NCBI GenBank assembly: GCA_964016885.1
Contig: OZ024750.1
Span: 37,262,001-37,326,000, forward strand
Direction of reading: 5' to 3'
DNA: 64,000 bases
From: Eledone cirrhosa
Taxonomy: Eukaryota
Below the pieces are notes generated by a model. The model made no database searches and was not told the DNA's origin. It saw only the letters and a program-made list of their open reading frames with translations. A program made the translations under genes and the position numbers. Position 1 is the first letter of the stretch. Each line of letters starts with the position of its first letter. Positions 51,686 to 52,472 of the stretch are shown here, piece by piece.

Positions 51686-52472
51686 GTAGACGCGTTCTTG
51701 AGACTAGTAAAATGAGGTATCCTCTTGATAAGTCGGCAGACCTCGCAAGGACTCTATATCTTTGATATATTGCTTTTGTTTATGCCACGAAACTACGTAG
51801 TCGAGGAATTTAGGAGCAGTTTAGGTATGATACATTTTATTACTAATTATATCTAAATGTTTCTTCTCTCTTCATAATGTATTTTTAACTCTGATACTGG
51901 TTCAGTCTGGTTCAAACTGAATTGGTCTGTCCCAGTCATTCATTGAGCAACATCGGTGAAGTTGGCACCCTTAACTCACAGTTGGGTGCGGATGCATTCA
52001 TGTATATATGTGTGTGTCCGCATGTATCTGTGTGTTTATAAATATATTAATAACTCCCTCTGGTCGAGCAATCTTTGAGGTGTGGGGACAACTGGAAAGC
52101 TTCCATTACTCATACTTCTCGCCTTCTTCACTACCTCTTCTACGGCCTCGATATGAATACCCCCTCCGCCTCCGTGGTATTTTCTTCGTGGTTATAAGAG
52201 GCTTAGCTCTGTTTCTCGACCGTTATATCGCGTGACTATCTCCCCCTCCGCCTTTTGGGATTCTTTCTCACGTCGTGTAGACGCGTTCTTGAGACTAGTA
52301 AAATGAGGTATCCTCTTGATAAGTCGGCAGACCTCGCAAGGACTCTATATCTTTGATATATTGTTTTTGTTTATGCCACGAAACTACGTAGTCGAGGAAT
52401 TTAGGAGCAGTTTAGGTATGATACATTTTATTACTAATTATATCTAAATGTTTCTTCTCTCTTCATAATGTA
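51686..52472 (+). mobile_element. Small non-coding element with ~196-bp direct terminal repeats (591-bp period), each with a hammerhead, inserted in (TA)n
   Basis: 51686-51881 recurs at 52277-52472; absent from the equivalent site in PLE units 1 and 2. Confidence 0.85.
51720..51807 (+). ncRNA. Type I hammerhead, U3-A8 core variant (second copy at 52311-52398)
   Basis: UCCUC-UUGAUAA-GUCGGCA...UGCCAC-GAAAC UACGUA GUC-GAGGA; palindromic stem III ACUACGUAGU. Confidence 0.8.

What the first reader, a model, noticed from the sequence alone, without database searches (positions are those of the whole stretch)
51686..52472. Non-coding mini-element with a compensated U3-A8 hammerhead in both terminal repeats
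Seen: 787-bp insert in a TA run with ~196-bp direct repeats. Each repeat folds as an HHR with UUGAUAA in place of CUGANGA, GUC triplet, 10-nt palindromic stem III and extended stem II. Established: positions 3 and 8 form a Watson-Crick pair, so the double change preserves the active fold. Inference: a non-autonomous retrozyme-like element releasing a 591-nt RNA (cuts after 51802 and 52393), invisible to CUGANGA searches; empty sites in units 1 and 2 indicate recent mobility.
Basis: partly seen in the sequence, partly recalled or inferred. Interest (0 to 1): 0.82.

Follow-up and report, generated by a model that had tools for sequence, protein, structure and literature searches.

The report
Twin-primed Penelope-type hammerhead retrozyme
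This is one of thousands of young copies of a 591-base non-coding jumping repeat that carries a predicted self-cutting RNA; the shape of its insertions suggests that a helper enzyme likely copies one RNA molecule, probably a circle, from two fixed starting points at once.

Summary
The 787-bp insert, the 197-bp repeats, the U3-A8 type I hammerhead and the empty sites are real. The repeats are not terminal repeats: the insert is 1.33 turns of a 591-bp monomer with one hammerhead. About 7,000 hammerhead copies of this family and a sister family lie in the 3-Gb genome; sampled copies sit in (TA)n tracts as tandem arrays, 5'-truncated and often inverted, as Penelope-like elements (PLEs) do. It is an animal non-LTR retrozyme. 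U3-A8 is already described in PLE hammerheads and is common in this genome's coding PLEs.

What I did not find in print: 3' ends fall at two fixed sites, A and B, 80 and 245-247 nt past the cut. 48 of 52 two-armed insertions pair one A with one B, and both arms copy the same template (0.25% versus 1.7% divergence). Three insertions have both arms stopping at the predicted cut, a footprint of cleavage in vivo. A remote C3-G8 family keeps the fold, including a predicted pseudoknot. Best model: cut, circularised, then twin-primed by a PLE enzyme. No RNA data; the helper is not identified.

The parts
51686..52472 (+). Whole insertion: one 5'-truncated arm, 1.33 turns of the 591-bp monomer, ending at start site A
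51803..52393 (+). 591-nt monomer from cut to cut; predicted circular RNA; 41.8% GC; longest ATG-started frame 75 aa
   Evidence: (circular fold z -4.9 on +, -1.3 on -)
51713..51807 (+). Hammerhead 1 (type I): stem I 51720-51724/51803-51807, core 51725-51731 with U3-A8, stem II 51732-51788, palindromic stem III 51792-51801, predicted cut after C51802
52304..52398 (+). Hammerhead 2, the same motif one turn later; predicted cut after C52393
51713..51745 (+). Predicted 6-bp pseudoknot: 51713-51718 (5' of stem I) pairs with 51740-51745 (internal loop of stem II)
   Evidence: U-A 6, U-G 3, C-G 2 at one pair; no unpaired cell; family 3 has a different 8-bp pairing at the same place
52394..52472 (+). 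Hairpin A, which begins at the cut and sequesters the 3' strand of stem I, followed by start site A (cut+80), the 3' end of this copy; internal copy at 51803-51882
   Evidence: pairing probability 0.92-0.96
51977..52049 (+). Hairpin B (51977-52032) followed by start site B (52047-52049, cut+245 to 247); internal here, the 3' end of 67 of 143 arms elsewhere
51671..51685 (+). Left copy of the 13-15 bp target-site duplication
52471..52485 (+). Right copy of the target-site duplication (first 2 bases shared with site A)
46418..46432 (+). Empty site in host unit 2: single copy of the duplicated target

Best explanation
The insert is 1.33 turns of a 591-bp non-coding tandem unit present in thousands of near-identical copies, which is likely mobilised by a Penelope-like element's enzyme from an RNA that its hammerhead likely cuts and the cell probably closes into a circle. 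Steps: (1) a read-through or internal transcript of an array carries two hammerheads (shown for this copy; transcription inferred). (2) The ribozyme cuts after GUC, helped by a pseudoknot and possibly as a dimer through the palindromic stem III (inferred; genomic footprint of the cut shown). (3) The monomer is ligated, and hairpin A then traps one strand of stem I and keeps the circle from cutting again (inferred from folding; host RtcB-type ligation taken from PMC7229834). (4) A PLE RT/GIY-YIG enzyme nicks both strands of a (TA)n tract about 13-15 bp apart; one target end primes at site A and the other at site B of the same RNA (fixed ends, A+B pairing and shared template shown; the enzyme inferred). 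(5) Each cDNA runs round the template and stops at a variable point; the two are joined head to head by microhomology, or only one survives, as in this window (structures shown; route inferred).
For: Copies. Ends: 140 of 143 arms from 90 insertions end at A (73) or B (67); the better TA match inside hairpin B was the end of none. Pairing: 48 of 52 two-armed insertions are A+B, 1 A+A, 1 B+B, 2 other (p about 1e-12 against free choice); 21 of 23 in the positional C1 sample; also seen in family 2, most two-armed family 3 loci and 3 of 3 two-armed coding PLE insertions. One template: divergence 0.21% within arms, 0.25% between arms, 1.72% between insertions; arms differ at 18 of 940 common polymorphic sites against 241 expected; L092 shares 5 private alleles over all 7-8 covering copies in both arms. 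Continuity across the cut: 63 of 140 arms cross it twice, arrays reach 8 turns; genome-wide only 25 pattern hits end exactly at cut+1 against about 7,000 intact cores. Footprint of cleavage: those 25 compare with 17 at a control position, 8 of which read as one-base deletions; in L257, L265 and L268 both arms stop at the cut (3 of about 15 two-armed cases, about 0.1 expected). Selection on the ribozyme; family 3 keeps the fold with C3-G8, another stem I, another 10-nt palindrome and another pseudoknot. Literature: two internal RT start sites and nicking of both strands in a PLE in vitro (PMC11167929); circular RNAs of animal retrozymes (PMC7229834).
Against: No direct RNA evidence for transcription, cleavage or a circle. 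A long uncut transcript of a homogeneous source array would also give identical units and continuity across the cut. In the PLE studied in vitro, hammerhead mutants inserted normally, uncut RNA was the main substrate, and both strands used the same start sites. Naiad PLEs make tandem and inverted insertions without canonical hammerheads. Eight of nine Xenopus retrozymes tested did not cleave in vitro. Most loci were chosen on a motif or query that spans the cut, so '131 of 140 arms cross the cut' is inflated; the enrichment at cut+1 is modest (about 22 independent against about 9) and rests on one control position. No coding PLE with a homologous terminal region was found in 50 GIY-YIG loci or by pattern.
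Confidence: 0.62

Rival explanations
1. Same element and same twin priming, but the template is a long, mostly uncut linear transcript of a source array; the hammerhead only trims transcripts now and then and no circle is needed.
For: Hammerhead cleavage was dispensable for insertion in vitro. Homogeneous source arrays would give homogeneous daughters. Stops at the cut are rare. Arrays of up to 8 turns exist as possible sources.
Against: Daughters could never exceed their source in length, yet most insertions are 1-3 turns and the family keeps producing long arrays. 5' ends do not gather at the other start site (2 and 0 of 143 against 3.1 expected). A non-coding element has kept the full ribozyme fold across three divergent families.
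Confidence: 0.25
2. The template is the cut linear monomer, and tandem units arise when the reverse transcriptase jumps from the RNA's 5' end back to its 3' end.
For: Some arms, and in three insertions both arms, stop exactly at the cut, so linear cut RNA was sometimes used.
Against: The junction is exact in 7,696 copies (which selects for it) and columns 116-119 differ in only 4 of 876 bases in the aligned sample. End-to-end jumps would be expected to leave added or lost bases and many more stops at the cut than 25.
Confidence: 0.06
3. One reading: an LTR-like mini-element whose two 196-bp terminal repeats each carry a hammerhead, like plant LTR retrozymes.
For: This copy alone looks like that, and it has a target duplication.
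Against: 5' ends of other copies are spread over the whole unit; only L099 starts within 2 nt of this one. Arrays have a 591-bp period. The ribozyme is type I and the duplication 13-15 bp, whereas plant LTR retrozymes have type III and 4 bp.
Confidence: 0.02
4. A satellite that spreads at the DNA level (unequal crossover, rolling-circle DNA), the hammerhead being a passenger.
For: Proposed for amplification of vertebrate retrozyme arrays. The C10 host unit has duplicated together with the insert.
Against: Dispersed short arrays, two fixed 3' ends, variable 5' ends, head-to-head inversions, a target duplication and stops at the ribozyme cut are marks of target-primed reverse transcription.
Confidence: 0.03

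Closest known systems
Animal non-LTR retrozymes (Cervera & de la Pena 2020, PMC7229834; Li, Clavereau & Pollet 2026, bioRxiv 10.64898/2026.07.22.740005)
   Same: Non-coding tandem unit with one type I hammerhead per unit, GC under 50%, target duplication longer than 4 bp, co-occurs with PLEs, self-paired predicted circle.
   Different: Unit of 591 nt (150-450 in the 2020 paper; 51-972 in the preprint). U3-A8 core, 57-nt stem II, predicted pseudoknot, 10-nt palindromic stem III. The ribozyme is predicted to be blocked in the circle, unlike most animal retrozymes in the 2020 paper. The text I read does not describe fixed start sites or arm pairing.
Endonuclease-bearing Penelope-like elements, Neptune type (Craig et al. 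2021, PMC8557442; Arkhipova et al. 2013, PMC3846280)
   Same: Partial tandems forming pseudo-LTRs, an inverted 5'-truncated copy, a 'tail' at one end only, microsatellite targets, hammerhead in the repeated end.
   Different: No ORF; the tail is 165-167 nt rather than 30-40; no sequence homology to a coding element found.
Anolis Poseidon element PAc in vitro (Frangieh et al. 2024, PMC11167929)
   Same: Internal initiation at two sites that bound the tail; one start region 85-92 nt past the hammerhead cut (here 80); both target strands nicked and extended; AT-rich target.
   Different: PAc start sites are not homologous to the target and both strands used them alike; here both sites end in TA-like bases matching the target, and the two target ends use different sites in 48 of 50 cases.
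U3-A8 minimal hammerheads of PLEs (Cervera & de la Pena 2014, PMC4209133); pseudoknotted hammerheads (Perreault et al. 2011, PMC3088659)
   Same: U3-A8 covariation, palindromic helix III, stem I-stem II pseudoknot as tertiary contact.
   Different: Far longer stem II and stem III than minimal PLE hammerheads; the pseudoknot joins the 5' flank of stem I to an internal loop of stem II.

Membership tests
Animal non-LTR retrozyme | Type I hammerhead in every tandem unit | tested here: met
Animal non-LTR retrozyme | Multi-copy head-to-tail repeats of a few hundred bases | tested here: met
   591-bp period, up to 8 turns; within the 51-972 bp range of the preprint, above the 150-450 bp of PMC7229834
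Animal non-LTR retrozyme | No protein coding | tested here: met
   longest ATG frame 75 aa; no tblastn match to PLE proteins among 462 frames
Animal non-LTR retrozyme | GC under 50%; target duplication longer than 4 bp | tested here: met
   41.8%; 13-15 bp at the one site where it could be read
Animal non-LTR retrozyme | Self-cleavage of the RNA | tested here: inconclusive
   indirect only: arms stopping at cut+1, three double stops
Animal non-LTR retrozyme | Expressed as linear and circular monomers | not testable with these tools
   no run on record as RNA was available
Plant LTR retrozyme | True LTRs with a type III hammerhead and a 4-bp target duplication | tested here: not met
   repeats are a partial tandem, type I ribozyme, 13-15 bp duplication
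Plant LTR retrozyme | Primer-binding site and polypurine tract | not tested
   not searched
Penelope-like element (endonuclease-bearing) | ORF with RT and GIY-YIG | tested here: not met
   the element is non-autonomous
Penelope-like element (endonuclease-bearing) | Partial tandems, inverted 5'-truncated copy, tail at one end | tested here: met
   tail 165-167 nt
Penelope-like element (endonuclease-bearing) | Microsatellite target preference | tested here: met
   3' ends run into TA repeats in nearly all sampled arms
Penelope-like element (endonuclease-bearing) | Homology to the pseudo-LTR of a coding PLE in the same genome | tested here: inconclusive
   none in 50 of 150 listed GIY-YIG loci or in the window; 10,596 candidates exist
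Minimal PLE hammerhead (min-HHR) | Helix II of 7-8 bp and absent or very short helix III | tested here: not met
   57-nt stem II and 10-nt palindrome against the description

The most novel reading that the evidence does not exclude
The family records the full PLE integration reaction: an asymmetric enzyme pair holds one ribozyme-made RNA circle at two hairpin-flanked start sites and primes both target strands at once, one at A and one at B, in rolling-circle fashion; the RNA is a switch in which a pseudoknotted, dimer-capable hammerhead cuts the transcript and hairpin A then locks it off in the circle. This would explain the tandems, the inversions and the one-sided tail of all Penelope-like elements by one mechanism.
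Probability: 0.4. Interest if true: 0.75.

Novelty: new variant of a known kind. Interest (0 to 1): 0.5.

Why it matters
How Penelope-like elements integrate, why their insertions are tandem and inverted with a tail on one side, and whether their hammerheads make a circular template are open points in the papers read (PMC4209133, PMC7229834, PMC8557442, PMC11167929). This young family with thousands of copies and an unusually long tail turns them into countable statements: one A end and one B end per insertion, one template for both arms, rare stops at the ribozyme cut. It gives a 591-nt substrate for direct tests with a PLE enzyme.

Tried and rejected
Rfam: no hammerhead match at 51680-52480 with E<=10; the whole-window scan was swamped by TA-repeat matches to microRNA models and only the best 150 of 368 rows were shown. 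The repeat finder on the whole window was uninformative. RNA: no RNA holder listed. The four runs laid were contigs of unknown kind; two gave a single 620-621-nt contig that closes on itself, which tandem DNA would also give, so it is not used. Helper search: no homology of the monomer to 50 GIY-YIG loci by blastn, tblastn or nhmmer (L126 is a neighbouring insertion); a pattern for the same stem III with a short stem II found mostly inversion junctions, two hits of a deletion variant and one unrelated hit; foreign sequence at 5' junctions, such as L064, is best read as nesting beside other PLE ends, not co-packaging. Best but unproven candidate: the Neptune-type family of L132 (938-aa frame, RVT_1 and GIY-YIG, copies 98.5-99.3% identical, U3-A8, site A at cut+82, similar B end). 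MAFFT misaligned family 3 with families 1 and 2 over the ribozyme, so that comparison was made by eye. Within families 1 and 2 double-sided covariation is thin: 4 of 87 pairs, 28 of 500 shuffles as high. 17 of the 25 mixed common sites lie at 231-235 and are probably alignment artefacts beside an indel. A short frame starting in stem II gave no PLE match and is not claimed. Lunse et al. 2017 was not held. No complex or structure job was run.

Full report
Observation. The insert, repeats, ribozyme motif and empty sites are as described. The two repeats differ at one base; the C at 51773 is in 1 of 206 aligned copies and weakens stem II slightly. The left and right flanks repeat a 15-bp stretch that is single in host unit 2, so the target duplication is 13-15 bp.

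What it is. The window lies in a 3.0-Gb genome. A search with the insert scored 40 of 372 candidates and listed 98 matches, the full-length ones 99-100% identical, many in arrays of 591-bp period. Exact patterns for the two halves of the ribozyme give 7,696 and 6,989 hits, reversed controls 0; both patterns also match a sister family. The first 100 hits fall into 49 insertions, so the genome holds very roughly 3,500 insertions (estimate). The '196-bp terminal repeats' are the part of the monomer copied twice: this arm began at a fixed 3' site and stopped after 787 bases.

Ends. I mapped 143 arms in 90 family 1 insertions. Left out: overlapping or duplicated loci (L001, L003, L058 and others), arrays running off the fetched stretch (L004-L007, L019, L033-L036, L185, L196), one decayed copy (L072), five older or sister-family loci (L181, L182, L201, L203, L204), one unrelated hit (L193) and two sister-family pieces in L046. 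73 arms end at site A (unit position 193-202, cut+80), 67 at site B (360-370, cut+245 to 247), 3 elsewhere. 3' ends run into TA repeats; 5' ends are spread over the unit. Both sites follow long predicted hairpins and end in TA-like bases, but the best TA match of the monomer, inside hairpin B, was never an end, so complementarity alone does not choose the sites. This is the PLE pattern: partial tandems, an inverted 5'-truncated copy and a tail at one end (PMC8557442, passages; PMC3846280, passages), the tail being the stretch between two RT start sites (PMC11167929, parts 1-2 of 4). Here the tail is 165-167 nt instead of 30-40.

Pairing rule. Of 52 two-armed insertions 48 are A+B, one A+A (L194, a 28-nt arm), one B+B (L025), two have another end. 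In the positional sample from contig C1 it is 21 of 23. One-armed insertions use A and B about equally there (11 and 11, 1 other). Inversion junctions mostly overlap by a few bases. The rule also shows in family 2, in most but not all two-armed family 3 loci, in the loci (13 A+B, two with a tiny A arm plus B, one A+A-like, one complex; read by eye) and in 3 of 3 two-armed coding PLE insertions.

One template. Among the younger insertions, copies differ by 0.21% within an arm, 0.25% between the arms of one insertion and 1.72% between insertions. At 40 common polymorphic sites the two arms differ in 18 of 940 comparisons against 241 expected. 31 private alleles are shared by all covering copies of an insertion and 106 are in only some, as expected for later mutation. 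With thousands of possible source loci, the simplest reading is that both arms were copied from one RNA molecule.

Is the template continuous across the cut? 131 of 140 arms cross the predicted cut and 63 cross it twice, but most loci were selected on a sequence spanning the cut. I therefore counted genome-wide: 25 hits end exactly at cut+1 in family 1 and 3 in family 2, against about 7,000 intact cores. So the template is nearly always continuous. Yet cut+1 is somewhat favoured: about 22 independent cases against 17 control hits at cut+4, of which 8 read as one-base deletions. In L257, L265 and L268 both arms stop at 116-119; about 0.1 such cases are expected among about 15. These three are best explained by a linear RNA whose 5' end was made by the ribozyme. 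In several others one arm stops there while the other crosses, which fits the chance background. Cleavage plus continuity points to ligation into a circle, but a mostly uncut multimer fits as well.

The ribozyme. Position 3 is U in 6,989 copies and another base in 11, all with A8; C3-G8 does not occur in this context. Core, stem I, stem III and pseudoknot columns vary at 0.15-0.32% against 1.4% over the unit. Family 2 (about 72-78% identical; 1,828 candidates, 40 scored) keeps the core unchanged while stem II drifts with pair-preserving changes (94.6% of cells paired; only 4 pairs with changes on both sides). Family 3 (486-nt unit; 1,784 candidates, 40 scored) is at most remotely similar (best local match E 0.006) but has the same plan: C3-G8, a different 5-bp stem I, long stem II, a different perfect 10-nt palindrome in stem III, an 8-bp pairing between the 5' flank of stem I and the stem II internal loop, site A at cut+81 and B at cut+197 after hairpins. 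A palindromic loop is not needed for a monomer hairpin, and the self-duplex is predicted at -12.9 kcal/mol where the isolated 10-mer does not fold, so dimer action is plausible, as proposed for PLE hammerheads (PMC4209133, parts 1-2 of 4; review PMC6765202, passages). The flank-to-loop pairing could be a pseudoknot of the active fold or part of an inhibitory fold; RNAalifold puts it in an alternative structure. The cut-to-cut circle folds well on the ribozyme strand (z -4.9, 40 shuffles) and not on the other (z -1.3, 25 shuffles); in it the 3' strand of stem I pairs in hairpin A with probability 0.92-0.96, which would switch the ribozyme off.

Helper. The genome is rich in GIY-YIG PLEs (10,596 candidates, 150 scored). 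Several families with C-terminal endonuclease and the CX2-5CxxC linker that PMC8557442 gives for Neptune and Nematis have U3-A8 hammerheads and end in TA tracts. None of the 50 loci examined is homologous to the monomer. The L132 family is the best candidate on youth, core type, spacing and end sequence; this is a lead only.

Known versus new. The class is known: animal non-LTR retrozymes (PMC7229834, parts 2-4 of 6), proposed to be non-autonomous PLE derivatives (bioRxiv 10.64898/2026.07.22.740005, parts 1-3 of 5). U3-A8 and pseudoknots in hammerheads are known (PMC3088659, passages). The circle-as-template model is proposed without insertion-level evidence in the text read. A one-sided tail is described qualitatively. 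I did not find the strict A+B rule, the shared template of both arms or stops at the cut in paper searches; the library lacks most subscription journals, Lunse et al. 2017 could not be read, and I opened no supplements (the model figure S9 of PMC7229834 and Fig. S2 of PMC11167929 may bear on this). An earlier unchecked note describes a similar TA-targeted tandem element without a hammerhead, a caution that the ribozyme may not be required for such arrays.

Verdict. A real, young, high-copy non-LTR retrozyme of the Penelope type: about 0.9 for the class, about 0.85 for twin priming on one RNA, about 0.62 for the whole model with a ribozyme-made circle. The flagged U3-A8 feature is ordinary; the insertion anatomy is what deserves follow-up. 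Interest 0.5.

Noticed in passing
window 39529-55181 and 62523-64000, - strand: The roughly 5.2-kb host units are themselves a decayed Penelope-like element in tandem: frame pieces at 49872-49306, 49339-48725 (RT-like) and 54415-53591 (GIY-YIG-like). No Pfam hit. The motifs recall the Hydra clade (recalled, not tested).
   Followed up: partly
window 23640(+), 27658(+), 36455(+), 29185(-), 22761(-): Five further type I hammerhead motifs with C3-G8 and palindromic stem III, of four other repeat families; relatives occur in many fetched loci.
   Followed up: partly
window 29397-30020, - strand: GIY-YIG fragment of a Neptune-type PLE (Pfam PF01541 E 4.5e-4, under the cut-off), with a hammerhead motif just downstream at 29185.
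   Followed up: partly
window 30159-33455, - strand: Long open frame (1,098 codons stop to stop, the first 100 or so being TA repeat) that reads as an endonuclease-RT of a LINE: an apparently intact non-LTR retrotransposon.
   Followed up: no
window 51825-51905: Possible relic of the PLE terminal intron: an AG|GTA donor-like site about 20 nt past the cut in all three families, then a branch-like motif and a pyrimidine tract; older copies have an AG just after site A that young family 1 copies have lost.
   Followed up: no
L211-L240 (e.g. L225:1618-2103): Family 3: a separate high-copy 486-nt non-coding tandem element with a C3-G8 pseudoknotted hammerhead and the same two-site layout.
   Followed up: partly
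L151-L180 (e.g. L174:1047-1745): Family 2: older sister family with units of several lengths (580 nt in L165, shorter deletion variants); intermediates L094, L182, L203 link it to family 1.
   Followed up: yes
L132:3809-6622(-); L131:975-4262(+): Long, apparently intact Neptune-type PLE frames; several such families here use U3-A8 cores.
   Followed up: partly
L030 (- strand, near position 1194 of the reverse complement): Another U3-A8 hammerhead with a 12-nt palindromic stem III, unrelated in sequence.
   Followed up: no
window 34786-36270 and 57387-62524: Tandem arrays of 310-bp period (over 99% identical) and of roughly 270-300-bp period (82-92% identical).
   Followed up: no
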